DNA from: a virus
Lineage: Duplodnaviria > Caudoviricetes
DNA: 64,000 nucleotides
Direction: 5' to 3' (one strand)
Virus record (IMG/VR): IMGVR_UViG_3300035101_000015
Coordinates: 1-64,000 of that record
This document shows positions 7,680 to 63,986 of this stretch, in pieces. Numbering within the stretch: the stretch's first letter is position 1; every line of letters starts with the position of its first letter. The translations under genes were made by a program, and so were the position numbers. The notes below the pieces were generated by a model. It was not told the origin of the DNA, ran no database searches, and saw only the letters and a list, made by a program, of their open reading frames with translations.

Positions 7680-8555
7680 CTAGATGGGACCTTTGGTTGC
7701 CCCCGGTAGAGGTTTTCCGTACCCCATAGGCTTCGAGAGCTGGGCGATGCTAGGGCCTGGAGGAGCCGTGACCTTGGGCGCGCCAACCTGCATGCTCTTC
7801 GTGAGCCGGCCTTGAGGCGTGGTGGGTGCCGCTTGCTTCTGCTGCCACTCACCCATTGCCTCGATGGCATTGCGAGCAGCCCGAGCGATGGCGGAGGTCT
7901 TCTCCTTCGTCTTGTCGCCGTTCATCTCCTCCTCTTCACCCGGAGGAGGACCTGCGGTCTTCATACCCTGAGGGTTGCCAGGCATGCCCCAAGGACTGCG
8001 GTAGCTGAACCGGCCCATGCTGAGTGGGCCCGAGTACTGACTCACCGTGAAGCCCAGCTTGGCAGCGTTCTGCTTCATCATGCTGATGGGCTCGTACTTC
8101 TGCATCTTGATGCCCTGTGTCTTCTGGTCGAAGGCAGTGACGGCACCGATGTCCTGGGACTTCTTCAGGCGCTGCTGTGGCGTGTCGCCCGCAGGCTTGG
8201 GAGGCTTGTACCCCTTCATCGAAGGAGGCGGCATAGGAGGCTCACCAAGAGGGGCACCGATGGCCAACTTCGCGAATGCGTGACTCAGCTTCGCACCGAG
8301 CATGTCGTAGACGTGCTCCTCAGCTCCATGAGGATTGATGCCCTTGGCTTCAACGAACGCGTGGAACTTCTCGTCCTTTTGACCCTTTGGACGCTTCTTC
8401 ATGAAGGCAGCGATGGCAGACCGGTCCTTGTCGTTCAGCTCCCTACGGCCTTCTTCATCATCGTCTCCGTTGGCAGCCTTCACGAAGGTGTCCCTCATGA
8501 CGGAGAACTTGGTGATGTCCGCCTTCTTACGCTTGAGCTGGCGACGGGAGGTCAC
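7680..8555 (-). CDS. K-x-A-punctuated low-complexity protein (putative head-packaged polyprotein)
   Basis: VKAA, AKLS, AKLA, MKTA, EKTS, QKQA separate Pro/Gly/Lys-rich modules. Confidence 0.6.
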   Translation of the reverse strand: MTSRRQLKRKKADITKFSVMRDTFVKAANGDDDEEGRRELNDKDRSAIAAFMKKRPKGQKDEKFHAFVEAKGINPHGAEEHVYDMLGAKLSHAFAKLAIGAPLGEPPMPPPSMKGYKPPKPAGDTPQQRLKKSQDIGAVTAFDQKTQGIKMQKYEPISMMKQNAAKLGFTVSQYSGPLSMGRFSYRSPWGMPGNPQGMKTAGPPPGEEEEMNGDKTKEKTSAIARAARNAIEAMGEWQQKQAAPTTPQGRLTKSMQVGAPKVTAPPGPSIAQLSKPMGYGKPLPGATKGPI

Positions 8556-9259
8556 TACTCCCCCTTGGCCTTCTCGGCCTCGTGCTCCATCATCAGACGG
8601 AACCGACGTTTCCTAGGAACCTTACCCTTCTGTCCTAGCCGTCTACCTGGTTGACTACACCCAGAGCCAGGGCCCGGAGCTCCCCTGCCTCTTCCTCCTA
8701 ACCCCTCAGCGGTCTTCTCCTTGGCCTTCTCAGCCTCATGCTCCATCTTATTCAATCGGGTGTAGTAGTCCCCAAATTCTTCGAGATGGTCTCTCGCAAT
8801 CTCCCGAGCCTTGGCTCGGTCATTCGTATGCTCCATCTCGACCTTCTCACCCATGGCCATCTGCTTGGCATCGAAGTCCTTGTCGGTCTTCTTGTCGGCC
8901 TTGCCGCCCGGAATGGCGTCCGCCAACTTGGACAGCATGATTTGGTTGAGCTCATCACTCATCGACGCGTAGTCGGCACTGCTCTTCTTCACGAGTCTCT
9001 TCCCCGTCCACCGAGTCTTCGGCTTGTCACTGAGTTTCGGAGTCTCGAGACCGCCAGGATTGGCGCTCTTGGTGTACTTCTTCTTGGGCTGGTCGTACTT
9101 CTGCTTGGCCTCTCGCTTGCCCTCAGCAGTACCGTAGCCCTTCGGAGTCTTGCCCATCTTGTGGGACTGCTGGGTGGCAATGGCGAAGGCAGTCGACTTG
9201 GACATCGACGGGTTCTTCGCCAGGATGTGCTCGGCTCGATTGTGAATCCAGGCAGGCAT
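8555..9259 (-). CDS. K-x-A-punctuated protein with DUF5661-like module
   Basis: Start MPAWIHNRAEH; module IPGGKAD...GEKVEMEHT.DRAKAREIARDHLEE...YYTRL bracketed by SKLA and EKTA. Confidence 0.7.
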   Translation of the reverse strand: MPAWIHNRAEHILAKNPSMSKSTAFAIATQQSHKMGKTPKGYGTAEGKREAKQKYDQPKKKYTKSANPGGLETPKLSDKPKTRWTGKRLVKKSSADYASMSDELNQIMLSKLADAIPGGKADKKTDKDFDAKQMAMGEKVEMEHTNDRAKAREIARDHLEEFGDYYTRLNKMEHEAEKAKEKTAEGLGGRGRGAPGPGSGCSQPGRRLGQKGKVPRKRRFRLMMEHEAEKAKGE

Positions 9260-9260
9260 G

Positions 9261-9755
9261 TCAGACTCCCAGGTACTTGGACGCCTTCCGGCGTAGCTTC
9301 CCCCTCTTACTGGTCCCCAGGTATTGCCGCAGCTTCTCCTTCTCAGCCTCACGGTCGAGCACACTGCGCGCGGTAGGCAGACCAGCACCGAACACGGCAC
9401 CGCTCGCCGCAGCTCCACCGAGCTGGCGCGTCCCACCCCACAGAGCTTTGGCCAGGCCCTTCGCCTTGCCCCCGGCTCCCTTGGCCCTCAGGGCCTCCGC
9501 CAGGCCCTTGCCGACACCGCCGCCCACGAGCTTGCTGGCCATGAGACCTGCGGGCCCGACGATGCTGCCCGCGAGCGCACCACGCGTGAGCTGCTCTGGA
9601 GTGGGCTTCTTCCTCTCGAGCTCGCGCAGTCTCTTCAAGGCGCCTGCCGCCTCCTGTGTGGTCACCTGCGCCAGTTTCACCACGCCACCCTCAGTCGTGA
9701 ACTTCATGGCACAGAGCTTCACCAGCTCGTCCATCATGGTGTCGTAGGGGCGCAT
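9261..9755 (-). CDS. Cationic glycine-zipper protein after a DELVKL...VKLA leader
   Basis: GALAGSIVGPAG and GGAAASGAVFGAG segments, K/R-rich. Confidence 0.65.
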   Translation of the reverse strand: MRPYDTMMDELVKLCAMKFTTEGGVVKLAQVTTQEAAGALKRLRELERKKPTPEQLTRGALAGSIVGPAGLMASKLVGGGVGKGLAEALRAKGAGGKAKGLAKALWGGTRQLGGAAASGAVFGAGLPTARSVLDREAEKEKLRQYLGTSKRGKLRRKASKYLGV

Positions 9756-9764
9756 CGTTCCTCC

Positions 9765-12197
9765 TCAACTCGCAGCAGAGACCAGGCCGCGCGCCGCGCG
9801 CATGGCCTTCGGAGCGTAGTGGACACCCTTCTCCAGGGCGTGGGCTGCCGTGTCCTTCACCACGTTGAGCCCCAGATGCCCTAGGGCGCCCTTCATTGGA
9901 GCGTAGGTACCCGTCGCCTTGGCTACCGCTGCCAGGCCCGCCGCTGCCGGACTGACCGCCTGGCCGAGCATGGTGGCTGTCCCTGCCGCTCCCGCAATCT
10001 CCCCGAGCTGGCCCACACGGGGCGCCTGCGCCACCAGGCCGCGCCCCAGGGAGCCCCGGATGCCCCCGGCTCCCACCTCTGCCGCCCGCCCGGCGGCGCG
10101 CTGTAGCTCCTGCCCAGTGCCCCGGGTGATGCCCTCGATGAACCCACCCGCCGGCTTGCCCAGGGGGTTGAGCGTCTTCCCCGCTCCCGTAGCGTGGGTC
10201 ATGTGGGAGCCAGCACCCTCCAGACCCTCCCCGAGCACACGGCCGGCGGCGGTGCTCTTCCGGCCGACGGCGGCGGCCTGCTCTGGGGTGACCCCCTTCT
10301 TGAGCTTCAGGCCCTTCCCCAGCTCCTTCAGGTGCTTGCCTGCCCTCGTGTATGCACCCTCGGGGGTGAGGTCGACCACCTCATCACCCAACCGGACGAG
10401 CTTCTTGCCCGGCAGCACGCGCCGCAGGGCCTTGACGATGGCCTCCTTGCGCAGCTCCTCGTAGGAGGCGGACAGCTTCGTGAGGTCCAACCTGGAGAGC
10501 TCAGCGGACGCCAGCTTCAAGACGAGCTCGAGCTCATCAGGCGTGACGACGTGGGCCTGCTTCTCCCAGTTCGGATTGTTCTCCGTGGTAGGAGCGTCCG
10601 CGCCCGCGACCCGGCGGCCAACTATCGCACCGGCGCGGGACAGCGCCGGGTCCTGCCGGCCCACACCCGCACGCGTGGGGAATTGGTCGTGCTGAATCAA
10701 CCGGGTCATGGAGGCAGCCAGCTTCGGGGCCAGGTCCATCGTACGAAGTCCAGGGCTGACCTGTCGCTCTTCGTAACCAATGGAGGGCGCCTCGTCCCTA
10801 CTGGGAGCGTCTCCCTTCTTCGGCTTGGATACAGCGGGCTTCCCCTGCAGCTCGGTGTCCTGCATGACGTAGTGCTGAATGCCCCTCGAGGCACCCTCAC
10901 CGAACATCCGCTGCATCGTGCCACCGGAGTTGGCGAGCTTCTTCTGCTCTGGCTTCTTGTCCAGCTTCTCCTTGAGCTTCTGAACACCTACTGTGACTAC
11001 CTTGCCCTTGTACTTCGGGTCGTCATAGTGCTTGAGGAACGCTTTCTCCGCCTCAGCCTTCGACTTGAAGCCGAGCATGACAGTGTCCTCGTCGTGCCCC
11101 TTGCCATCATCGTTGTGCTGCTGCACCACGTACGCGTTAGACGAGTCCTTGTCAGGGCCTACGTAGGCGTCAATCTCCTCGCCGTCCTTACCCTTCGTGC
11201 CCTCGATGTACCCGTAGGGAACCTTGAACTTCGTACGCCACTTCGACCCATCGTCGTTCTCACCCTCGCGCACGCTGCCCTTGCGGTTCTCGACAGCGAT
11301 GGGCAGGCCCTGCACATCAGTACGACCCTGGAGCTTGAAGCCAGCGGAGTTCTTCTTGCCCGTACCTGGCTTGAGCTCAGCCTGCTTCTCCTTCAGTGGA
11401 ACGGACTCGATGGAGATGATGCGGTCCGACCCATCTCCATCCCAACCCCCCAAGCACTCGCCCTGAACCTTACCGTTCTCCGCCTCGTAGATACCGAAGG
11501 AGTGTCCCACGACACCCCGTCGATGAATGCGCTTCAGCAGTTCCACCAGGGAGGGCACTTCACCCCGCATGCGGACACGTACCTCGGCCGTTGGCTCACC
11601 CTTGGATAGAACAACCTTCTTGTTCGACGGCTTGGGTTTCTTCTCCGGGTCCTCAGCCTGTTTGCGCATCTTGTCGACGCGCTTGCCGAGTGCCTCGCCA
11701 CCCTCGAGCCCCACCGCTGTGCCAGCCAGCGTACCGAGTAGCGCGCCAGCGACTGGGCTCTTCTTCATGAGCTTGCGCCCGAGCATAGCACCACTCGTCC
11801 CACCAAGGGCTGTGGTGTACCAGGGCAGCTTCTTCTCCACTGGGCCAGCCGCCTCCTTGGCGTATCGTTCTGGATGCTCCTCTCGATGAAGCGCAGCAAT
11901 CTTCTGTGCCAGTGACGAGCTCTCCTTGTCCATTACGTCCTCGAGGCTCTGCTTCACCTTGGAGGCGGCAGTGCCGAGGATGCGAGTGCGTGAGAGGTCC
12001 TCAGGCTTCACACCCAACGCCTCGGAGAGCTGCTCGTACCTCTTCTCCCAATTCGCATTCTTGTAGAGGGAGCCATCCTTCTCCTTGCGCAGGAACGTGT
12101 CGACACGCATCGGCCGGCGGCCCTTCCGACTCTTCGACAAGCGCATCCGGCCCTGAGAAATGGCCAGCTTGACCTGCTGCTCATCGAGAATCGACAT
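9765..12197 (-). CDS. 810-aa K-x-A-punctuated polyprotein-like protein with an inorganic-pyrophosphatase-like phage domain and glycine zippers
   Basis: GLPIAVENRKGSVR.G...W......YGYIEGTKGKDGEEIDAYVGP...DED.VMLGF bracketed by EKQA and KKLA; about 13 K-x-A/S sites. Confidence 0.75.
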   Translation of the reverse strand: MSILDEQQVKLAISQGRMRLSKSRKGRRPMRVDTFLRKEKDGSLYKNANWEKRYEQLSEALGVKPEDLSRTRILGTAASKVKQSLEDVMDKESSSLAQKIAALHREEHPERYAKEAAGPVEKKLPWYTTALGGTSGAMLGRKLMKKSPVAGALLGTLAGTAVGLEGGEALGKRVDKMRKQAEDPEKKPKPSNKKVVLSKGEPTAEVRVRMRGEVPSLVELLKRIHRRGVVGHSFGIYEAENGKVQGECLGGWDGDGSDRIISIESVPLKEKQAELKPGTGKKNSAGFKLQGRTDVQGLPIAVENRKGSVREGENDDGSKWRTKFKVPYGYIEGTKGKDGEEIDAYVGPDKDSSNAYVVQQHNDDGKGHDEDTVMLGFKSKAEAEKAFLKHYDDPKYKGKVVTVGVQKLKEKLDKKPEQKKLANSGGTMQRMFGEGASRGIQHYVMQDTELQGKPAVSKPKKGDAPSRDEAPSIGYEERQVSPGLRTMDLAPKLAASMTRLIQHDQFPTRAGVGRQDPALSRAGAIVGRRVAGADAPTTENNPNWEKQAHVVTPDELELVLKLASAELSRLDLTKLSASYEELRKEAIVKALRRVLPGKKLVRLGDEVVDLTPEGAYTRAGKHLKELGKGLKLKKGVTPEQAAAVGRKSTAAGRVLGEGLEGAGSHMTHATGAGKTLNPLGKPAGGFIEGITRGTGQELQRAAGRAAEVGAGGIRGSLGRGLVAQAPRVGQLGEIAGAAGTATMLGQAVSPAAAGLAAVAKATGTYAPMKGALGHLGLNVVKDTAAHALEKGVHYAPKAMRAARGLVSAAS

Positions 12198-51140: not shown

Positions 51141-52076
51141 CTAGCCTTTCTGCTCGAATGCCACGGACGAGTCTGATTGTTCCACGCAGGGGCGCACTAT
51201 GGGAATAGTGCTGCCCCCACGTGGGTTGAGGCGTTGGCCCGGCCGGTTGGGCCGAATCGTGCGAACTCTCACCGTGACGGCTGGATTGAGGGGATGCGGT
51301 TGTAGCGAAAGAGGACTTCGTTGTAGGTCCCTCGCTTGCGGTGCGAAGGTTGGTGGAGGACAGGCGTAGAACGCCATGGGAAGTTCATGGTCCATCGCAG
51401 GGTTGTTCCGGGGCGCCCCGAGGCTCCCTCGGAACGTGCGGCCCCGCACCTGCATGGTTTGCTCAATGTTCTGGACTACTTGTAGTCCCAACGGAGTGAA
51501 GGACGAGAGGCGAGCGAACTGGAAGGGCACGCTCACCGGCGTGCAGTAGAACTCATCGCCCCGGTCGTTGGCGATGATGCTGCCAGCGCCTGAGGGAGAG
51601 CCTACTTGAATCCCTCTACCGGTCTCGAAGAAGCCTGCCTTCATCAGCAGGTCTCGCAGTAGCCAAATGTGGTCAGCGATGACGAAGGCCAGGTGCTCAC
51701 TCTCGAGGTCGACCCGAGAGCAGCAGTTGATGGTCATGGTACCCGGAAGAAGCACACCCTTCGTCTTGCGGCCCAGCGCGAAGTCGTACCCCTCGAGGTC
51801 GTCGAGTCCGAGGTTGTAGAACTGGACGGGTCCGCGAACGAAGTTCACGGCCGGCACCTTCTCCACCACCGTTGGCTGAATGACATTCTCGTTGGTGATG
51901 TAGATTTCGGTGTTCTCGTCGTCGGGTACCCACCGATACGAGCCCTCTGGTGCCGTAGCGAACAAGCCCTTCACGAAGTTCACGAAGAGCACGCGCACGT
52001 GCATCAGCGGGTTGTACTTGAAGCTCGACTCCGGGTAGGCCGGACAAGAGCGGGTCTCAGGGTTCTTTGCTGCCAC
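51141..52076 (-). CDS. Tail terminator/neck-like protein
   Basis: VEKVPAVNFVRG, GTMTINCCSR..ESEHLA; directly upstream of the sheath gene. Confidence 0.6.
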   Translation of the reverse strand: MAAKNPETRSCPAYPESSFKYNPLMHVRVLFVNFVKGLFATAPEGSYRWVPDDENTEIYITNENVIQPTVVEKVPAVNFVRGPVQFYNLGLDDLEGYDFALGRKTKGVLLPGTMTINCCSRVDLESEHLAFVIADHIWLLRDLLMKAGFFETGRGIQVGSPSGAGSIIANDRGDEFYCTPVSVPFQFARLSSFTPLGLQVVQNIEQTMQVRGRTFRGSLGAPRNNPAMDHELPMAFYACPPPTFAPQARDLQRSPLSLQPHPLNPAVTVRVRTIRPNRPGQRLNPRGGSTIPIVRPCVEQSDSSVAFEQKG

Positions 52077-52731
52077 TGGCCCTCCTAGCAGCCGACTGCT
52101 CCCTCATCTTGTCGAGGAGGGTGTTCTGCCAGTGGGAGAACAGAAGGCTGCCAAGTCCCATGGTGACAGGGATTGCGTGTCCTGCAAAACGACCGGTGAC
52201 CAGCGGCTTGCCAGTGCGTTTCTTGCTCAGCCGATTGGCCAGTGAAAGGCCGCCGTAGCCGGCGCCGACGCCCGCCCCGAACGCACCGATGTCCTTGGCG
52301 GCAGTCACCCAGGGGTGAGATTTGGCAGGCTTGGGCTCGGGAAGCTCCTCCTGTGGCTCCACAGGAACCACATCAGCCTCAGCTCTCTTCTCCTTTCGAG
52401 CCTGATGGAGCAGATGAAGTCCACCACCAGTGAGAGCTCCACCAATCCCCAACGTCATCAGCGCCTGACCTAGTGGAGGTGCGGCTGATACAGGGCGCGT
52501 GGGTCGAATGGGTGGAATCTTGATGACGATTCGCTTCATCCGAGGCGCTCGCCTCGGCATGGCCTGTTGCTTTGGCACCTTGTGCCCACGTCGCTTCAGG
52601 TCATCTTCAATCTCCCTGAGCTTCCGCTCGAGCTCATCACCTGGGTCCGGGCGAGGCGCTGGAGTGGGCTCCGCCGTCTTCAACAACCCATCCTCGAGGG
52701 CGACTCTCATCTGCATGTGCGTCAGCGACAC
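52057..52731 (-). CDS. K-x-A-punctuated protein with glycine-zipper segments
   Basis: LKTA, EKRA; LGIGGALTGGG and GAFGAGVGAGYGG. Confidence 0.65.
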   Translation of the reverse strand: MSLTHMQMRVALEDGLLKTAEPTPAPRPDPGDELERKLREIEDDLKRRGHKVPKQQAMPRRAPRMKRIVIKIPPIRPTRPVSAAPPLGQALMTLGIGGALTGGGLHLLHQARKEKRAEADVVPVEPQEELPEPKPAKSHPWVTAAKDIGAFGAGVGAGYGGLSLANRLSKKRTGKPLVTGRFAGHAIPVTMGLGSLLFSHWQNTLLDKMREQSAARRASGSKEP

Positions 52732-53660: not shown

Positions 53661-55313
53661 CTACGCTGTGGCTCGACCCAGTAGTGCAGCACCACCGAGT
53701 CCAGCGCCGGCGAGGCCGAGAGCAGCACCACGGTTCTCCGTCTTGCCCGCCCACCGGGCGGCTCGACCGACACCACGGCTGGCCTGACCCTTCAGAGCCT
53801 CCATGCCCTTGCCGAACTGCATCCCTTGACCCTTGGCGCCCTTGAACGCTTTGCCGACGGTGGGTGCGGCCTTGCGGATGAACTGACCAGCACCCTTCAG
53901 TCCAGCCAGCATCGCACCACCAAAGGCTTCCTTCTGAAGCTGCTCGAACTCCTCAGGGGTGAGACCGAAAGCTGCCGCCTGCTTCACCAGTATCGAAGCA
54001 TGCTTGCTGCCGCACGCTGAGTCCTTCTCTTTGCCGCGCAGCATGCCCTTCACCTTGGCAGGCATGGGGCCCTTGCCCTCGCCAACCTTCTTGTCGTTGT
54101 CGAAGTCAGTACCAGGAGGAACTGCGTCCTTGCCGAGGTTCTCGAGCTGGGCCTTCTTCTCTTTGCCCTTCTTCTCGGACTTCTCTGCCTTCGGCTTCTT
54201 GCTACGCGTGTAGCCAAGGTAGGCACCTCCGCCGGCACCCAGAGCTCGTCCAACAGCAGCTCCAGGAGCACCTCCGGCGGCACCTCCCACTATTCCACCA
54301 CCAAGGCTGCCCATCAAAGCGCCAGTTCCTGGACCCATCTCTCCGGGCTTGAAGTCCGCATTCTCCGCGTACCTTCCCATCCTACCGGCTGCGTACCCAG
54401 CGAGGCCGGGTGTGAAGATGTCCTTGGTTGCACCAGCAGCAAGGCCAACTGGAGTGGCGACAGCCAAACCTGCAGGGTCCACTGCAGACACCTTCTGCAG
54501 CGGCTTCTCCCTCTTCTGACTCTCCTGTCCCTTGCTCACGCCGACCTTCTTCTCGGCCTTGCGCTGGAGCTTCTGGGGAACGACCTCGGAACGCGTGGCG
54601 AGTGCCGGGTACTTCTTCGACACAGCCTTGAAGACCTGCGCCTTCTCAGATGGTGAACCGAATTGCCGCACGCGTGTCAGGGCATTGCGGGCGTGCTTCG
54701 GGTCGTGGATGGGGTACTTGCCCCCCTTGACAGCGAAGTTCTTGGACTTGATTTTCTCCCGAGCCTGACCGGTGAGCACAGCAGAGAGCTTGATGGAAGC
54801 AGCCTTCTCTACCGGACTCGCCTCCTCAGCTTCGGCTTCATCCTCTTCGTCCTCTTCATCCTCCTCACCCTCTTCAGGCTCTTCGGCTTCGAGCTCTTCG
54901 CCCTCCTCTTCCTCAGTTTCACCGCCACCGGATGCCTGGAGCTTGTGCTTGTTGAGCTCGAGGTCGAGGATGCGCTTCTTGAGACGAATGGCGTCCTGCT
55001 GGCGCCACTCCTCATCGCACTCTTCGCGCTCAGCTTCCCGCTCCTGCTGCTTGGCTAGGCGCTTCTGCTCCCGAGCAATCTCGAGCTCTAGGCTCTCCTG
55101 CTCGAGCGCCAGGGCCTGTTCATGGAAGGGGGTGCCTTCGTACTTCTCCAACCATTCATCCGAGCCACCGCAGAGGTAGGCCAGCTTGCTCTTGCCCTCG
55201 GCCAGAGCGTAGAGCTCCCGCTTGGGGAGCTTGGTGAAGTCCTGCACCATGGCCTTGTAGGCTGATGCCTTCTTCTCGTGCTCGACTGCGACTTCGAGGA
55301 ATGCGTCCAACAT
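53661..55313 (-). CDS. K-x-A-punctuated polyprotein-like protein with DUF6582-like module
   Basis: LTGQAREKIKSKNFA...YPIHDPKHARNAL bracketed by IKLS and QKVS; acidic spacer; two glycine-zipper modules. Confidence 0.7.
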   Translation of the reverse strand: MLDAFLEVAVEHEKKASAYKAMVQDFTKLPKRELYALAEGKSKLAYLCGGSDEWLEKYEGTPFHEQALALEQESLELEIAREQKRLAKQQEREAEREECDEEWRQQDAIRLKKRILDLELNKHKLQASGGGETEEEEGEELEAEEPEEGEEDEEDEEDEAEAEEASPVEKAASIKLSAVLTGQAREKIKSKNFAVKGGKYPIHDPKHARNALTRVRQFGSPSEKAQVFKAVSKKYPALATRSEVVPQKLQRKAEKKVGVSKGQESQKREKPLQKVSAVDPAGLAVATPVGLAAGATKDIFTPGLAGYAAGRMGRYAENADFKPGEMGPGTGALMGSLGGGIVGGAAGGAPGAAVGRALGAGGGAYLGYTRSKKPKAEKSEKKGKEKKAQLENLGKDAVPPGTDFDNDKKVGEGKGPMPAKVKGMLRGKEKDSACGSKHASILVKQAAAFGLTPEEFEQLQKEAFGGAMLAGLKGAGQFIRKAAPTVGKAFKGAKGQGMQFGKGMEALKGQASRGVGRAARWAGKTENRGAALGLAGAGLGGAALLGRATA

Positions 55314-59473: not shown

Positions 59474-60598
59474 CTAGAACTGGACGACCTGCGGGAACTT
59501 CAGTCCCTGGTCGACACGGTTGTTGACCGCTCCGAGGTCCTCCTCCGCCTTCGGGATGAAGTTGGCGAGGAGGCCGTCCGCGTCGGTGCTCGGGTTGGCG
59601 TCGCCGCCGTAGAGCTCCATCTTGCGCACGGAGGCGATGTTGGCGATGAGCATCGAGATGTCCTCCCACGCCTGGAACGAAATCAAGTTCGCCACCTTGT
59701 CGATGTAGAACTTGGTGTTGTTCAGGATGTAGAACTTCCCGAGGAACTCCGGCCGGGTGAAGACGTACACGTTGCCGGGACGGAGGATGTCCGTCTTGAT
59801 GGTGCGGATGTACGCGCGACCCAGGAGGGTGTTGTACTTGTAGCCGTCGACCGTGGTCTCCGACTGGATGCGGTCGCCGTTGTCGTCCACCGTCCACTGC
59901 AGGACATCGTCGTAGTCGACCTCGGTCATCAGCAGGCGCTCGGCCCGCAGACGATTGCCGTCCAGCATCTTGAACAGGTTGACGATGTCCGGCCGTTGGA
60001 TGGGCCGAACGACCGCGTCGTCCGCACCGCCGGCGCCGCGAGCGAGCTCACCCTTGCGGATGGAGAACTCGACCGTGGTCCCGATGGCCGTGTTGTTGAG
60101 GGCGGTGGGGGTGCCACCGTTGGCCTCGGTCTGGAGCGCCTGCACCGCTGCCTCGATGTGCAGCAAGAACTCGCGGTCCTCGATTTCCTGGATGTCCTTC
60201 ACCGAGTTCTCCTCGATGATTTTCGTGATGGGCATCTCGTAGGCGAGGAGCTCCTGCTCGGTCTTCTGGAAGATTTCCGAGCTGATGGTGAAGAAGGCCG
60301 CCTCGGCGCGCTCACCTCGGATGAACCGGGTGGTGGGCTGGCCTCGGAAGCTGATGGCCATCGCGCGAGACTTCGGCTCGATGTCCACAATCTTCACCAG
60401 GGTGTCGTGGTTGGTGGAGCGCTGGCAATCCGTACGGGTCACCTGCTCCGGTGGCAGAACCTTACGCGCGAAGCTCACCTCGCGCAGACGGTCCCGAATG
60501 TACGAGCCTCCGTACTGTGCGAGCTTCTCCTTGCCCTCAGCCGAGTTCAGCTTCGTGGCGAAGGCATCGTTGAGCATGCGCGGCGAAATGGCACTCAT
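59474..60598 (-). CDS. Major capsid protein (probable HK97 fold)
   Basis: 374 aa; IRDRLREVSFARKVL, KDIQEIEDREFL, EFLGKFY; AAGGAG RBS, terminator after, position in head module. Confidence 0.85.
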   Translation of the reverse strand: MSAISPRMLNDAFATKLNSAEGKEKLAQYGGSYIRDRLREVSFARKVLPPEQVTRTDCQRSTNHDTLVKIVDIEPKSRAMAISFRGQPTTRFIRGERAEAAFFTISSEIFQKTEQELLAYEMPITKIIEENSVKDIQEIEDREFLLHIEAAVQALQTEANGGTPTALNNTAIGTTVEFSIRKGELARGAGGADDAVVRPIQRPDIVNLFKMLDGNRLRAERLLMTEVDYDDVLQWTVDDNGDRIQSETTVDGYKYNTLLGRAYIRTIKTDILRPGNVYVFTRPEFLGKFYILNNTKFYIDKVANLISFQAWEDISMLIANIASVRKMELYGGDANPSTDADGLLANFIPKAEEDLGAVNNRVDQGLKFPQVVQF

Positions 60599-61601: not shown

Positions 61602-63011
61602 TCACATTCCGCCTGCGCCAGCACCACCCATGGTGGCAGCGCTCATGCCCGTCTGCCCCTGCGGGGTGGACAGGGCCGGGTTGACCTGAGAGTTCTTCTC
61701 CTTCTTGGCCTTCTTCTTCTCGGCCTCCGCCTCTTCAGCGAGCTTCAGGAGAAGCGCGTGTGCCGCAGCCGTCTTGGTCAGCTTCGACGACGGGGACTCG
61801 GCCGAGGCAATCTTGGCGCCGGCCTCGTTGGTGTGAGTCCATGCCTTCTGCAGCACGGAGTCGTGCGCCGCTGACAGCGCCGGCTCGTCGATGACCTTGC
61901 CCAGGTCCTTCTTCGGGTCGGCCTTGGCCTGGCGCTTGGTGTAGTCGATGGCTGCCTGGTTGGTGGCAATCATCTGCTTCTGGCTCTTGACGTCGCTCGG
62001 CTCGGGCGGGATGGGTCCCTCCTGAGCAGCACTCGCGCCGTCGGGAGCGTCAGCACCCTGCGCACTGGCCTGTCCACCCGAAATCTGGGCGGGGTTGATG
62101 GCGTCCTCGGCCATCTTGGCCAAGAGCTCCATGTTCTTCTGGGCGAGAGCAGCCGTCTTGGCTTCCTCACCCTGGGCCATGCCGGAGAGCTCAAGCAGGT
62201 GCTGGAGGTTGGCCTCGGCCTGCTTCTGAGCAGCGTTGGACGCGTGCTCATTGCCCATCGGGTCGACCGGCTGCTCCGGGTGCTGCATCTCCAGGTTGTC
62301 GTCCATGACGTTGGCCGGACCCTTGCTGTCCGGGAACGAACGCATGGTCGGGTCCTTCTTGGGGACGTCCTTGGAGATGGCCTGGCCACTCTGGCCAGCC
62401 TCCATGACACCGTCACCCTCGGCCTTCGCCTCGAGGACCTCCATGACCTGTCCTGCGCCTTGGCCGGGTCCCACACCAGGGGACGCCACACCGGCACTGC
62501 CGGGGTCGGCCGCTTCCTTCGCGAGGTGCTCGAGCGCACTGGCGTACTTCTCGATGACCTCGTCAGGCAGAACGGCCGACTGCTCGACGGCTGCCGTCTT
62601 CGTCTGCTCCTGAGGGGTCACGGGGTGGCCAAGCTGCCGAGCTGCCTCAGCGGTGATGTCGACCTTGCTGAGCGTGCCCGCCATGGCTTCCTTGACCAGG
62701 TCGTGCATCGTCGGTCGCGTCATCATCCTTGCCATCGAAATCTCCTTGTGAGCCACCTTCGCGGGTAGGAACTCCATCCCCCTAGGTGGCGACGCCTTGG
62801 CTTGAGCTCCCACCGACGGGACCGGCGGAGCTCCGGTGTTCACACGGGAGTAGGTGGTGCGGGGAGCCAGCCCCTTGGGTCCCGTCTGCCCTGGAGCTGG
62901 CTTGTTGTCCACGACGACCGGAGTCGTCCCCGCAGGCGGAGTGGCAGCAGCCTCGGACTTCACCGAGTCGGGAAGGGCTGAGCCCTGGGCTGCTGCCTGC
63001 TTGCGCCACAT
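61602..63011 (-). CDS. K-x-A-punctuated head-associated protein (second in-frame start at 62735)
   Basis: About 13 K-x-A/S sites; AAGGAG before the internal ATG. Confidence 0.7.
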   Translation of the reverse strand: MWRKQAAAQGSALPDSVKSEAAATPPAGTTPVVVDNKPAPGQTGPKGLAPRTTYSRVNTGAPPVPSVGAQAKASPPRGMEFLPAKVAHKEISMARMMTRPTMHDLVKEAMAGTLSKVDITAEAARQLGHPVTPQEQTKTAAVEQSAVLPDEVIEKYASALEHLAKEAADPGSAGVASPGVGPGQGAGQVMEVLEAKAEGDGVMEAGQSGQAISKDVPKKDPTMRSFPDSKGPANVMDDNLEMQHPEQPVDPMGNEHASNAAQKQAEANLQHLLELSGMAQGEEAKTAALAQKNMELLAKMAEDAINPAQISGGQASAQGADAPDGASAAQEGPIPPEPSDVKSQKQMIATNQAAIDYTKRQAKADPKKDLGKVIDEPALSAAHDSVLQKAWTHTNEAGAKIASAESPSSKLTKTAAAHALLLKLAEEAEAEKKKAKKEKNSQVNPALSTPQGQTGMSAATMGGAGAGGM

Positions 63012-63026
63012 CGACGTCCTTGAGGT

Positions 63027-63986
63027 CTACTCGGCCTCTTCCTCCTCGCCGGTTCCGAACACCGAGTCCCAGTTCACGTCGTAGCCGCACTTCTCGAGCA
63101 GCTCGAGCCCGCGCACCTGGATGGCGTCGTTGGTGTCCTCGACGAACGCAATCTTCTCGCTCTCGCCGGGTCCTTCAGTCAGGACATTCTCGAGCAGTTC
63201 GATGCACTCGTCGGTGTCCCAGCCGCCCGCCTCGGCAATCTTCACCGCCTCTTCAGCCGCCAGCATGTCGAGTTGAGAGACCGAGCTCTCCTTCTTCAGG
63301 GCCTTGGCTGCGCCAGCCGCGCCGGCCGCGCCACCGAGAGCACCCGCTGCCAGAGCAGCACGTCCCACGGTCCGCTTGGTGCCCGCCGTACCCTTCAGGT
63401 TCTTCTTGAGCAGTCCGGTCTTCTTGCCAGCCTTGCTCGCGGCGCCCATCAGACGCTCGCCGACACCCTTGGAGAAGCCCTTCTCCGCACGACCGACCTG
63501 CTTGGCCTTCTTGGCAGCCGCACCGTAGAGCTTCTTGGCACCCTTCTGCACGGCCTCCATGCGACCAGCGGCCTCCTTGGCCTGGTCGATTTCCTGCAGC
63601 TCGTTGACGAACGCGTGCGCCATGGTCCGGCCCATGATGTCGGCCTCGGCGAACTTGGCGGCGGCTTCCTTGGCAGCCGCATGCTCAGACTCGGCGGCCT
63701 CTAGCTGCGACTCCTTCTCCTTCTCCTCTTCGTCCTCGCCCTTCTCCTTCTCCTTGGACTCGGAGGCTTCATGCTCCTCGCTCTCGTCCTCACCCTCTTC
63801 CTGAGCGAGCTTGCCGAAGGTCTCGGCGTACAGAGAGCTGACCTGCTCCGGCTGGAGCGTGGTGAGGTCGATGCCGTTGTCAGCGGCGAGCTTCGCGAAG
63901 AGCTCGAGCTCCGCCACCTTCTCCTGGGCTTCCTCGGCTTGGGTGCCGGTGCCGTACATCTCGGCGAGCCACTGATTCATTGCCAT
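63027..63986 (-). CDS. K-x-A-punctuated head-associated protein: acidic - cationic glycine zipper - acidic
   Basis: EKVA, AKLA, GKLA, AKEA, AKFA, AKEA, KKES, VKIA, EKIA; GGGAG RBS. Confidence 0.75.
   Translation of the reverse strand: MAMNQWLAEMYGTGTQAEEAQEKVAELELFAKLAADNGIDLTTLQPEQVSSLYAETFGKLAQEEGEDESEEHEASESKEKEKGEDEEEKEKESQLEAAESEHAAAKEAAAKFAEADIMGRTMAHAFVNELQEIDQAKEAAGRMEAVQKGAKKLYGAAAKKAKQVGRAEKGFSKGVGERLMGAASKAGKKTGLLKKNLKGTAGTKRTVGRAALAAGALGGAAGAAGAAKALKKESSVSQLDMLAAEEAVKIAEAGGWDTDECIELLENVLTEGPGESEKIAFVEDTNDAIQVRGLELLEKCGYDVNWDSVFGTGEEEEAE

What the first reader, a model, noticed from the sequence alone, without database searches (positions are those of the whole stretch)
8708..11387. 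Recognisable folded domains are bracketed exactly by K-x-A/S motifs
The inorganic-pyrophosphatase-like phage domain in ORF 9765-12197 begins just after EKQA (KQA at 11379-11387) and ends at KKLA (KLA at 10932-10940). The DUF5661-like domain in ORF 8555-9259 sits between SKLA (8921-8929) and EKTA (8708-8716). The DUF6582-like domain in ORF 53661-55313 sits between IKLS (~54783) and QKVS (~54490). Three independent matches between motif and domain edge are the best internal evidence that the motif marks release sites. Domain names are from memory.
Basis: partly seen in the sequence, partly recalled or inferred. Interest (0 to 1): 0.75.

Follow-up and report, generated by a model that had tools for sequence, protein, structure and literature searches.

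The report
Lys-x-Ala junction marks in phage cargo
In this uncultured large phage, the folded modules of several Lys-rich virion proteins are bordered by a short Lys-x-Ala/Ser signal that is conserved in hundreds of relatives and is probably where the phage's own T4-like head protease cuts them apart, although no cut has been measured.

Summary
All six motifs are at the stated coordinates. InPase (PF18823) and DUF5661 (PF18905) are confirmed. The DUF6582 label is below Pfam's cut-off, but a conserved phage module (phrog_16160) does start right after IKLS.

"Exactly" is overstated. Gaps are 0-7 residues for five edges and about 24 for QKVS. K-x-[AS] occurs every ~35 residues in these proteins, and InPase holds three internal copies. 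From the window alone, chance per domain is 0.03-0.14.

Relatives settle it:
- 75 of 95 InPase domains have the motif 8-10 residues after the domain, and 81% have one within 22 residues before it.
- 21 of 21 DUF5661 domains have it downstream.
- 16 of 16 DUF6582-like modules have it upstream.
- This holds in shuffled domain contexts and at the second InPase of this genome.
- Five InPase domains from other phage clades lack it at both edges.

K-x-A is enriched only in head-module proteins, here and in Salmonella phage Arash. The head module encodes a protease with the T4 gp21/herpesvirus fold.

Cleavage is therefore likely but not shown, and the scissile bond is unresolved. The scan already noted the same Lys-x-Ala code on another genome (e1-5666572).

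The parts
9765..12197 (-). 810-aa Lys/Gly-rich virion cargo (polyvalent-type) precursor protein
   Evidence: ORF. InPase is the only named domain. 98 relatives with shuffled architectures. AlphaFold model with alternating ordered and disordered segments.
10962..11348 (-). InPase domain (PF18823), aa 285-412; ordered core about aa 275-424
   Evidence: E 5e-38; 134.8 bits; pLDDT 86-97 over aa 281-420.
11379..11387 (-).
   Evidence: It lies at the end of disordered segment 225-274. It is not the position most conserved in relatives.
11346..11354 (-). K282-N-S, a second upstream K-x-S at the InPase envelope start
   Evidence: Read from the translation. Kept in P0002. It falls in the main upstream peak (offset -13).
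10932..10940 (-). K420-L-A, downstream bracket of InPase
   Evidence: K420 is conserved in at least 90% of 41 aligned relatives. The motif lies at +8 to +10 in 75 of 95 homologous domains. It sits at the order/disorder border.
12162..12170 (-). K10-L-A in the N-terminal leader of the 810-aa protein
   Evidence: 147 of 271 related proteins have a K-x-[AS] within their first 15 residues.
8555..9259 (-). 234-aa Lys-rich protein carrying DUF5661
8738..8875 (-). DUF5661 domain (PF18905), aa 129-174
   Evidence: E 2e-11; 46.5 bits.
8921..8929 (-). K111-L-A, upstream bracket of DUF5661
   Evidence: An upstream motif is present in only 10 of 21 relatives.
8708..8716 (-). K182-T-A, downstream bracket of DUF5661
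   Evidence: A downstream K-x-[AS] is present within 16 residues in 21 of 21 relatives.
53661..55313 (-). 550-aa acidic/Lys-rich protein with a DUF6582-like module
54567..54782 (-). Conserved module (phrog_16160; weak DUF6582 likeness), about aa 178-249
   Evidence: 1.4e-8, aa 178-223; DUF6582 E 0.014; conserved in 15 relatives.
54783..54791 (-). K175-L-S, upstream bracket of the module
   Evidence: A K-x-[AS] sits at the same place in 16 of 16 relatives.
54486..54494 (-). K274-V-S, downstream bracket, at the end of a conserved basic extension
   Evidence: K-[VL]-[SA] at the same offset in 9 of 11 long-form modules (the window's own copy plus 8 relatives).
60518..60526 (-). K25-L-A in the N-terminal arm of the major capsid protein (ORF 59474-60598)
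   Evidence: phrog_2522 major head protein. K-x-A lies within two residues of the same place in Arash and Vibrio phage D69 capsid proteins.

Best explanation
The three ORFs encode precursor proteins that are loaded into the phage head: ejection or 'polyvalent' cargo. The short signal K-x-[A/S], in fuller form hydrophobic-x-K-[T/L/V/I]-[A/S]-small, is the recognition site of the phage's own head-maturation protease.

That protease is a 578-aa protein encoded just beyond the window, at 64026-65762 of the record. Its N-terminal domain has the T4 gp21/herpesvirus assemblin fold.

During head maturation the protease would cut at or within these sites. This would free the InPase, DUF5661 and DUF6582-like modules and remove short N-terminal leaders, as T4 gp21 does for internal proteins and as phiKZ gp175 and SPN3US gp245 do for ejection proteins.

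Shown here: the motif positions, their conservation, the head-specific enrichment and the protease fold.

Inferred: packaging, cleavage itself, and which bond is cut. The cut could be after A/S, with K at P3 as in the P3-x-P1 rules of T4, phiKZ and herpesviruses. It could instead be after K, with the hydrophobic residue at P3.
For: (1) Position-specific conservation.
- InPase: K-x-[AS] at +8 to +10 after the Pfam end in 75 of 95 domains, and within 22 residues upstream in 81%. The background is 1.7% per position.
- DUF5661: downstream motif in 21 of 21. DUF6582-like module: upstream motif in 16 of 16, and downstream in 9 of 11 long forms.

(2) The neighbours change and the motif stays.
- It sits at the junctions helicase|InPase|C92 amidase|GNAT and InPase|C39|ligase, and between tandem InPase domains.
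- An InPase inserted into a protease homologue (P0056) is flanked by it.
- The second InPase of this genome is also flanked by it.

(3) It is not intrinsic to InPase. Five InPase domains from other cultured phage clades have no motif at the equivalent edges; only one has a K-R-S further downstream.

(4) Head-specific enrichment against per-protein shuffles.
- Nine head-module genes chosen by position: K.A 65 observed vs 28.6 expected (z 7.0), and K[TLVI]A 36 vs 6.6 (z 12.5).
- The rest of the genome shows none.
- Arash gp218-226: K.A 46 vs 21.2 (z 5.8). Arash tail and RNAP genes show none.
- Reversed A.K shows no enrichment.

(5) The same extended consensus appears in three unrelated site classes.

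(6) Protease.
- AlphaFold pLDDT is 84.
- The best solved match is T4 gp21 (Z 9.5, 130 residues, rmsd 2.8). VZV and pseudorabies proteases and about 30 further herpesvirus protease entries follow.
- 79 BFVD matches, many named prohead protease.
- H118, S174 and D182 are invariant.
- A conserved K30-x-A32 lies in the protease's disordered N-terminus. T4 gp21 activates by cutting off its own N-terminus (PMC9958956).

(7) K-x-A occurs in the capsid protein's N-terminal arm in three distant phages.

(8) N-terminal leaders ending in the motif occur in 147 of 271 relatives.
Against: - No cleavage product has been observed for this phage or any relative. The Arash virion proteomics is tryptic, and only coverage values are published.
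- Arash scaffold-like gp223, which is full of motifs, has 100% coverage. Any propeptides there are therefore not fully lost.
- Within the six focal Lys-rich proteins the loose motif is barely above composition (K.A z 1.3, K.S z 2.7). Only the extended form is clearly enriched (z 4.1).
- Some K-L-[AS] copies lie in confidently predicted helices, for example aa 561.
- InPase has conserved internal K-G-S and K-x-A-P copies, so the tripeptide alone cannot be sufficient.
- The DUF5661 upstream site is not conserved.
- Known gp21-type phage proteases all cut after Glu (PMC9026906, PMC10052503), so this would be a new specificity.
Confidence: 0.6

Rival explanations
1. The motif is the end of a short amphipathic helix that docks cargo modules to the scaffold or capsid interior. 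It would be a targeting or packing signal that is not cut, and the proteins stay intact in the virion.
For: - Many sites sit in a helical context of two hydrophobic residues, D-E-L, one variable residue, K, a hydrophobic residue, then A.
- Several lie in predicted helices.
- N-terminal leaders carry the motif even where nothing upstream needs removing.
- Arash gp223 has 100% peptide coverage.
- In T4 the capsid-targeting and processing determinants are separable parts of one 10-residue leader (PMC9026906).
Against: - A pure docking signal does not explain why the motif sits at nearly every domain junction.
- It does not explain the motif in the disordered N-terminus of the protease itself, nor in the capsid protein's N-terminal arm.
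- K and A/S are fixed while the middle residue varies freely. That pattern is typical of protease subsites.
Confidence: 0.15
2. The sites are cut, but by another enzyme: a peptidase carried in the cargo itself (C92 or C39 papain-like domains, as Iyer et al. proposed for MPTase domains), or a host protease after injection.
For: Relatives of the 810-aa protein carry Peptidase_C92 and C39 domains. Iyer et al. 2017 (PMC5512222) proposed that polyvalent proteins are processed by their own peptidase domains.
Against: - The three window ORFs have no peptidase domain.
- The motif is also enriched in capsid, scaffold-like and protease proteins of the head module, here and in Arash. That points to a head-wide enzyme.
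- The head module encodes an assemblin-fold protease with its own conserved site.
Confidence: 0.08
3. There is no signal. The brackets come from Lys/Ala-rich composition, or the flanking residues are simply terminal parts of each domain that the Pfam models omit.
For: - The motif occurs every ~35 residues in the focal proteins.
- Window-only P values are 0.03-0.14.
- The loose motif is not clearly enriched in the focal proteins.
- Fixed offsets from the domain ends (+8 for InPase) could reflect domain extensions.
Against: - Per-protein shuffles control for composition and still give z 7 to 12.5 in the head module, with none elsewhere.
- The same consensus flanks three unrelated domains and many others.
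- InPase domains of other phage clades lack it at the equivalent edges.
- Both InPase sites lie at the edges of the ordered region.
Confidence: 0.07

Closest known systems
T4 prohead protease gp21 with its substrates (gp23, gp24, internal proteins IPI-III, Alt) and the capsid targeting sequence
   Same: - The protease has the same fold (Z 9.5 to PDB 5jbl).
- It is encoded in the head module.
- A likely self-processing site lies in its N-terminus (PMC9958956).
- Short N-terminal leaders end in the motif, like the 10-residue CTS (PMC9026906).
- The motif is a short three-position rule.
   Different: - T4 cuts after Glu in L/I-x-E. Here the fixed residues are Lys and Ala/Ser, with no Glu requirement.
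- Here the sites also lie between enzyme modules inside long chains, not only at N-terminal propeptides.
- No sequence-level family match: Pfam and PHROGs are silent for the protease.
Giant-phage prohead proteases phiKZ gp175 and SPN3US gp245, and their ejection or inner-body protein substrates
   Same: Many head and ejection proteins carry multiple copies of a short motif (A-X-E in SPN3US, PMC10052503). Propeptides contain redundant sites (PMC9026906). Virion-packaged RNA polymerase occurs in the same kind of phage (Arash proteome).
   Different: - Cleavage there has been measured by mass spectrometry and is after Glu.
- SPN3US substrates lose N-terminal propeptides only; the sole C-terminal cut is the protease's own (PMC10052503). 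Here the sites separate recognisable enzyme domains.
- The phage lineage is different (Arash/Vibrio D69-like).
Herpesvirus assemblin (maturational protease) cutting at (V/L/I)-x-A|S (consensus from my own knowledge)
   Same: Same fold (Z 6-9 to VZV, PRV, HCMV, HSV-1, KSHV and EBV proteases). Small Ala/Ser at the conserved last position, followed by a small residue.
   Different: The position two before Ala is Lys here, not an aliphatic residue. The scissile bond is unproven. The host domain is different.
Polyvalent proteins of phages and conjugative elements (Iyer, Burroughs, Anand, de Souza, Aravind 2017, PMC5512222)
   Same: InPase is one of their hallmark phage-only domains. They have shuffled multi-enzyme architectures next to virion genes, and are predicted to be packaged and injected.
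   Different: That work proposed processing by an in-chain MPTase. It reports no junction motif: 'linker' occurs 0 times and no cleavage-site motif was found in the text search. Here no MPTase is present, and a head-protease code is the likely processing route.
HK97-type prohead proteases (COG3740 / S78), which cut the capsid protein after Lys103 (from my own knowledge)
   Same: Many BFVD structural matches of the candidate protease carry this name. A cut after Lys would fit the alternative register hydrophobic-x-K|x-A.
   Different: No sequence match to that family. HK97-type proteases are not known to process multi-enzyme cargo.

Membership tests
Pfam InPase (PF18823) | Score above the curated cut-off over nearly the whole model | tested here: met
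   130.4 bits against 26.8; model positions 7-134 of 135. 134.8 bits in the genome scan.
Pfam InPase (PF18823) | Four conserved acidic metal-binding residues of type I pyrophosphatases (PMC5512222) | not tested
   Residues were not mapped individually.
Pfam DUF5661 (PF18905) | Score above the curated cut-off | tested here: met
   44.5 bits against 27; 46.5 bits.
Pfam DUF6582 (PF20223) | Score above the curated cut-off | tested here: not met
   16.1 bits against 27.3. Of 10 relatives only one matches, at 22.7 bits. phrog_16160 matches at 1.4e-8, so the module is real but the Pfam name is only a distant likeness.
Phage polyvalent proteins (Iyer et al. 2017) | Two or more unrelated effector domains in one polypeptide | tested here: inconclusive
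   Each window ORF has one named domain. Close relatives combine InPase with DUF5661, helicase, C92, GNAT, ligase and C39.
Phage polyvalent proteins (Iyer et al. 2017) | Encoded among late or virion genes | tested here: met
   The ORF at 53661-55313 lies about 4 kb from the major capsid gene, in a minus-strand gene run that continues to the protease and terminase just past the window end. The ORFs at 8555-12197 are part of the window's long minus-strand gene run; their immediate neighbours have no named function.
Phage polyvalent proteins (Iyer et al. 2017) | In-chain processing peptidase (MPTase) | tested here: not met
   No peptidase domain in the three ORFs.
Phage polyvalent proteins (Iyer et al. 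2017) | Packaged in the virion and delivered to the host | not testable with these tools
   Needs virion proteomics of this phage or a close relative.
Substrates of a gp21/assemblin-fold prohead protease | A protease of that fold encoded in the head module | tested here: met
   pLDDT 84. Z 9.5 to T4 gp21, then herpesvirus proteases. 79 BFVD matches including named prohead proteases. The gene lies between scaffold-like genes and the terminase.
Substrates of a gp21/assemblin-fold prohead protease | Conserved catalytic His and Ser | tested here: inconclusive
   H118, S174 and D182 are invariant and H216 is at least 90% conserved in 34 sequences. Their structural equivalence to the gp21 catalytic residues could not be checked residue by residue.
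Substrates of a gp21/assemblin-fold prohead protease | A short motif enriched in head proteins only, present in the capsid protein's N-terminal arm and in the protease itself | tested here: met
Substrates of a gp21/assemblin-fold prohead protease | Cleavage after Glu (the rule of T4, phiKZ, SPN3US) | tested here: not met
   The conserved positions are K and A/S. Glu is only a frequent, non-obligatory residue before K. If the sites are cut, this is a new specificity.
Substrates of a gp21/assemblin-fold prohead protease | Cleavage products observed | not testable with these tools
   No peptide-level data are available. The Arash supplement holds only gene tables.

The most novel reading that the evidence does not exclude
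A very large, almost uncultured phage lineage uses a Lys-x-Ala/Ser cutting code in place of the Glu rule of T4 and phiKZ. The lineage's protease family has more than 2,100 clusters at 50% identity. Enzyme modules flanked by this code behave as portable cassettes. They can be inserted anywhere in head-packaged chains, even into the protease gene itself, and are released as separate injected enzymes. If so, the mature virion proteome and the injected 'toolkit' of these phages could be read directly from sequence.
Probability: 0.45. Interest if true: 0.75.

Novelty: new variant of a known kind. Interest (0 to 1): 0.6.

Why it matters
Head-protease processing of packaged proteins is known for T4 and phiKZ-like phages, always after Glu. 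How polyvalent phage proteins are split into working units is an open question. Iyer et al. proposed an in-chain metallopeptidase.

A sequence-readable junction code recognised by the head protease would answer that question for a large uncultured lineage. It would also give exact predicted borders for dozens of unknown cargo modules. It would explain how enzyme domains shuffle between chains, and it would offer a packaging-and-release tag for engineering.

It is directly testable in the cultured relatives Salmonella phage Arash and Vibrio phage D69.

Tried and rejected
- A pattern scan of IMG/VR with the 810-aa protein found no relatives. The protein database search did.
- Arash and Vibrio phage D69 carry neither InPase nor DUF5661. 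They could serve only for the head-module and protease comparisons.
- Pfam and PHROGs give no family for the candidate protease, the scaffold-like proteins or the 731-aa head-module protein.
- I first took the 731-aa protein for the portal. That is not supported: it has only a weak C-terminal likeness to Arash gp218 (E 0.005), and Arash's annotated portal is gp204.
- Foldseek against the PDB gave no significant match for the protease model. The structural realignment and the viral library did.
- The Arash paper's supplement has gene tables only and no peptide lists. Capsid protein coverage of 86.6% is compatible with a lost N-terminal piece but proves nothing. A cut after Lys would be invisible in a tryptic digest.
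- Column-wise conservation did not reveal the scissile bond. After InPase, K is found in 65 of 93 and A/S in 59 of 93, which is about equal.
- My first enrichment test used a gene set chosen partly after seeing motif counts. I replaced it with a position-defined set.
- I did not run a protease-substrate complex prediction.


Full report
CONTEXT. The window is the first 64 kb of a 145.8-kb IMG/VR virus record, about 78% complete and 61% G+C. Most genes are on the minus strand. The major capsid gene is 59474-60598 (phrog_2522). Just beyond the window lie scaffold-like genes, a 578-aa candidate protease (record 64026-65762), the large terminase (phrog_675) and a fused beta/beta' RNA polymerase. 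The only cultured relatives are Salmonella phage Arash and three Vibrio phages, with about 30% identity in the capsid protein and the protease candidate.

THE OBSERVATION.
- InPase: aa 285-412 of the 810-aa ORF, E 5e-38.
- DUF5661: aa 129-174 of the 234-aa ORF, E 2e-11.
- DUF6582: only a sub-threshold likeness, 16 bits against 27.3. One of ten relatives matches, at 22.7 bits. A conserved phage module (phrog_16160, 1.4e-8) begins at aa 178, immediately after K175-L-S.

Gaps between motifs and projected domain edges are 5 and 6 residues (InPase), 1 and 6 (DUF5661), and 0 and 24 (third module). The AlphaFold model of the 810-aa protein is confidently ordered from about 275 to 424 and disordered on both sides. 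Both InPase motifs therefore sit on order/disorder borders.

'Exactly' is too strong. K-x-[AS] occurs every 34-39 residues in these proteins, and InPase has three internal copies. A closer K-N-S sits at aa 282-284. Random placement gives equally good brackets with P = 0.033, 0.034 and 0.142.

COMPARATIVE TEST. The 810-aa protein has 98 relatives with heavily shuffled architectures.
- InPase: among 95 domains, K-x-[AS] lies 8-10 residues after the Pfam end in 75, and within 22 residues upstream in 81%. Background is 1.7% per position. K420 is conserved in at least 90% of 41 aligned relatives.
- DUF5661: all 21 copies have the motif within 16 residues downstream. Only 10 of 21 have one upstream, because in many relatives the domain directly follows a conserved N-terminal module.
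- Third module: 16 of 16 copies have the motif at a fixed place upstream. Nine of 11 long forms have K-[VL]-[SA] at a fixed place downstream.
- In ten multi-domain relatives the motif sits at the junctions helicase|InPase|C92|GNAT and InPase|C39|ligase, between tandem InPase copies, and in short N-terminal leaders. It is missing between parts of one enzyme, such as SNF2/helicase-C and ligase/OB.
- One protease homologue (P0056) has an InPase inserted into its linker, flanked by the motif on both sides.
- The second InPase of this genome, in the 1236-aa repair-enzyme chain, is flanked in the same way. That chain also has a site four residues after its 2H domain.
- Five InPase domains from other cultured phage clades (Pbunavirus, Wifcevirus, Atu_ph07, a Bacteroides phage, Vibrio K397) lack the motif at the equivalent edges. 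One has a K-R-S further downstream. The motif is therefore not part of the InPase domain.

IS THE MOTIF A REAL SIGNAL? KTA and KLA are among the most over-represented tripeptides in the proteome. I tested nine head-module genes chosen by position only:
- K.A: 65 observed against 28.6 expected from per-protein shuffles (z 7.0).
- K[TLVI]A: 36 against 6.6 (z 12.5).
- K.S and the reversed A.K are not enriched, and the rest of the genome shows nothing.
- Arash repeats this: gp218-226 have K.A 46 against 21.2 (z 5.8), while its tail and RNAP genes show none.

In the six focal Lys-rich proteins only the extended form is clearly enriched (z 4.1). Three unrelated site classes were compared: after InPase, before InPase, and the protease N-terminus. 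All share hydrophobic-x-K-[T/V/L/I]-[A/S]-small. The capsid proteins of this phage, Arash and D69 all have K-x-A at nearly the same place in the N-terminal arm.

THE LIKELY ENZYME. The first 300 residues of the 578-aa protein fold with pLDDT 84.
- The best solved match is T4 gp21 (Z 9.5, 130 residues, rmsd 2.8). VZV, pseudorabies and about 30 other herpesvirus protease entries follow.
- Plain Foldseek against the PDB was not significant.
- 79 viral models match, many named prohead protease.
- H118, S174 and D182 are invariant in 34 sequences. So is K30, with A32 nearly invariant, in a disordered N-terminal stretch. This recalls gp21's self-activation by N-terminal cleavage (PMC9958956).
- The family is large: 2,135 clusters at 50% identity.

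MECHANISM AND ITS LIMITS. The most likely reading is that these chains are head-packaged cargo cut by this protease at the motif. The closest parallels are T4 internal proteins with their capsid-targeting leader (PMC9026906) and SPN3US and phiKZ ejection proteins cut at A-X-E (PMC10052503). Those enzymes cut after Glu, so this would be a new specificity.

The register is open. The cut could be after A/S, with K at P3. That matches the P3-x-P1 pattern of this protease fold and the Ala|Ser rule of herpesviruses, which I cite from my own knowledge. It could instead be after K, with the hydrophobic residue at P3. An earlier scan note on an Mx1-like phage read a similar motif in that second way. 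Column conservation does not decide between them.

No cleavage has been measured. The Arash proteome is tryptic and is published only as coverage values. Iyer et al. 2017 proposed in-chain MPTase processing for polyvalent proteins, and a text search of that paper found no junction motif.

EARLIER NOTES OF THIS SCAN. The parent note on this window (e1-5761969) proposed the polyprotein idea. A follow-up on another genome (e1-5666572) reached the same Lys-x-Ala reading. I did not use these as evidence.

VERDICT. The 'release site' interpretation is partly supported: the indirect evidence is strong and convergent, but there is no direct proof. It is a new variant of a known kind of system.

Noticed in passing
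L003:12191-18652 (record 76191-82652, outside the window): A single 2153-aa ORF carries Rpb2 (beta) and Rpb1 (beta') domains in one chain: a fused multisubunit RNA polymerase a few kb beyond the head module. In Arash the beta and beta' subunits are separate and are among the most abundant virion proteins.
   Followed up: partly
P0099-P0247 (relatives of the protein at L003:26-1762): Many homologues of the candidate protease are 900-1700 aa long and match in 2-4 stretches that break at query residues ~177-186, just after the invariant Ser174. This looks like inteins or other inserts next to the catalytic serine. An earlier scan note (e1-3274109) says the same of one such protein.
   Followed up: no
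window 12060-12128 (-), aa 24-46 of the 810-aa protein: A basic module (consensus R-x-G-R-R-P-M-x-V-x-T-x-L-R-K-E-K-D-G-T-L) is conserved at the N-termini of many relatives. It is often followed directly by DUF5661. It is a candidate head-targeting or packaging element.
   Followed up: partly
window 8600-8704 (-), aa ~186-220 of the 234-aa protein: An Arg/Gly-rich, Cys-containing mini-module follows the K-T-A site. It recurs after the DUF6582-like module in relatives P0257 and P0265, so it is another shuffled cassette.
   Followed up: partly
window 11697-11849 (-), aa ~117-167 of the 810-aa protein; also ORFs 9261-9755 and 52057-52731: Gly/Ala-rich hydrophobic stretches resemble membrane-inserting segments of ejection proteins. 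ORF 9261-9755 has a weak match to an internal virion protein family (phrog_342, E 3e-4).
   Followed up: no
L004:6332-10042 (record 120332-124042, outside the window): A 1236-aa chain contains 2H phosphoesterase, LigD 3'-phosphoesterase, ATP-dependent ligase and a C-terminal InPase. K-x-[AS] sites lie four residues after the 2H domain and on both sides of InPase.
   Followed up: partly
window 61602-63011 and 63027-63986 (-): Two acidic, Ala-rich, scaffold-like proteins with no family match carry 16 and 12 K-x-[AS] copies. They lie between the capsid gene and the protease gene, as expected of a scaffold that is degraded during maturation.
   Followed up: partly
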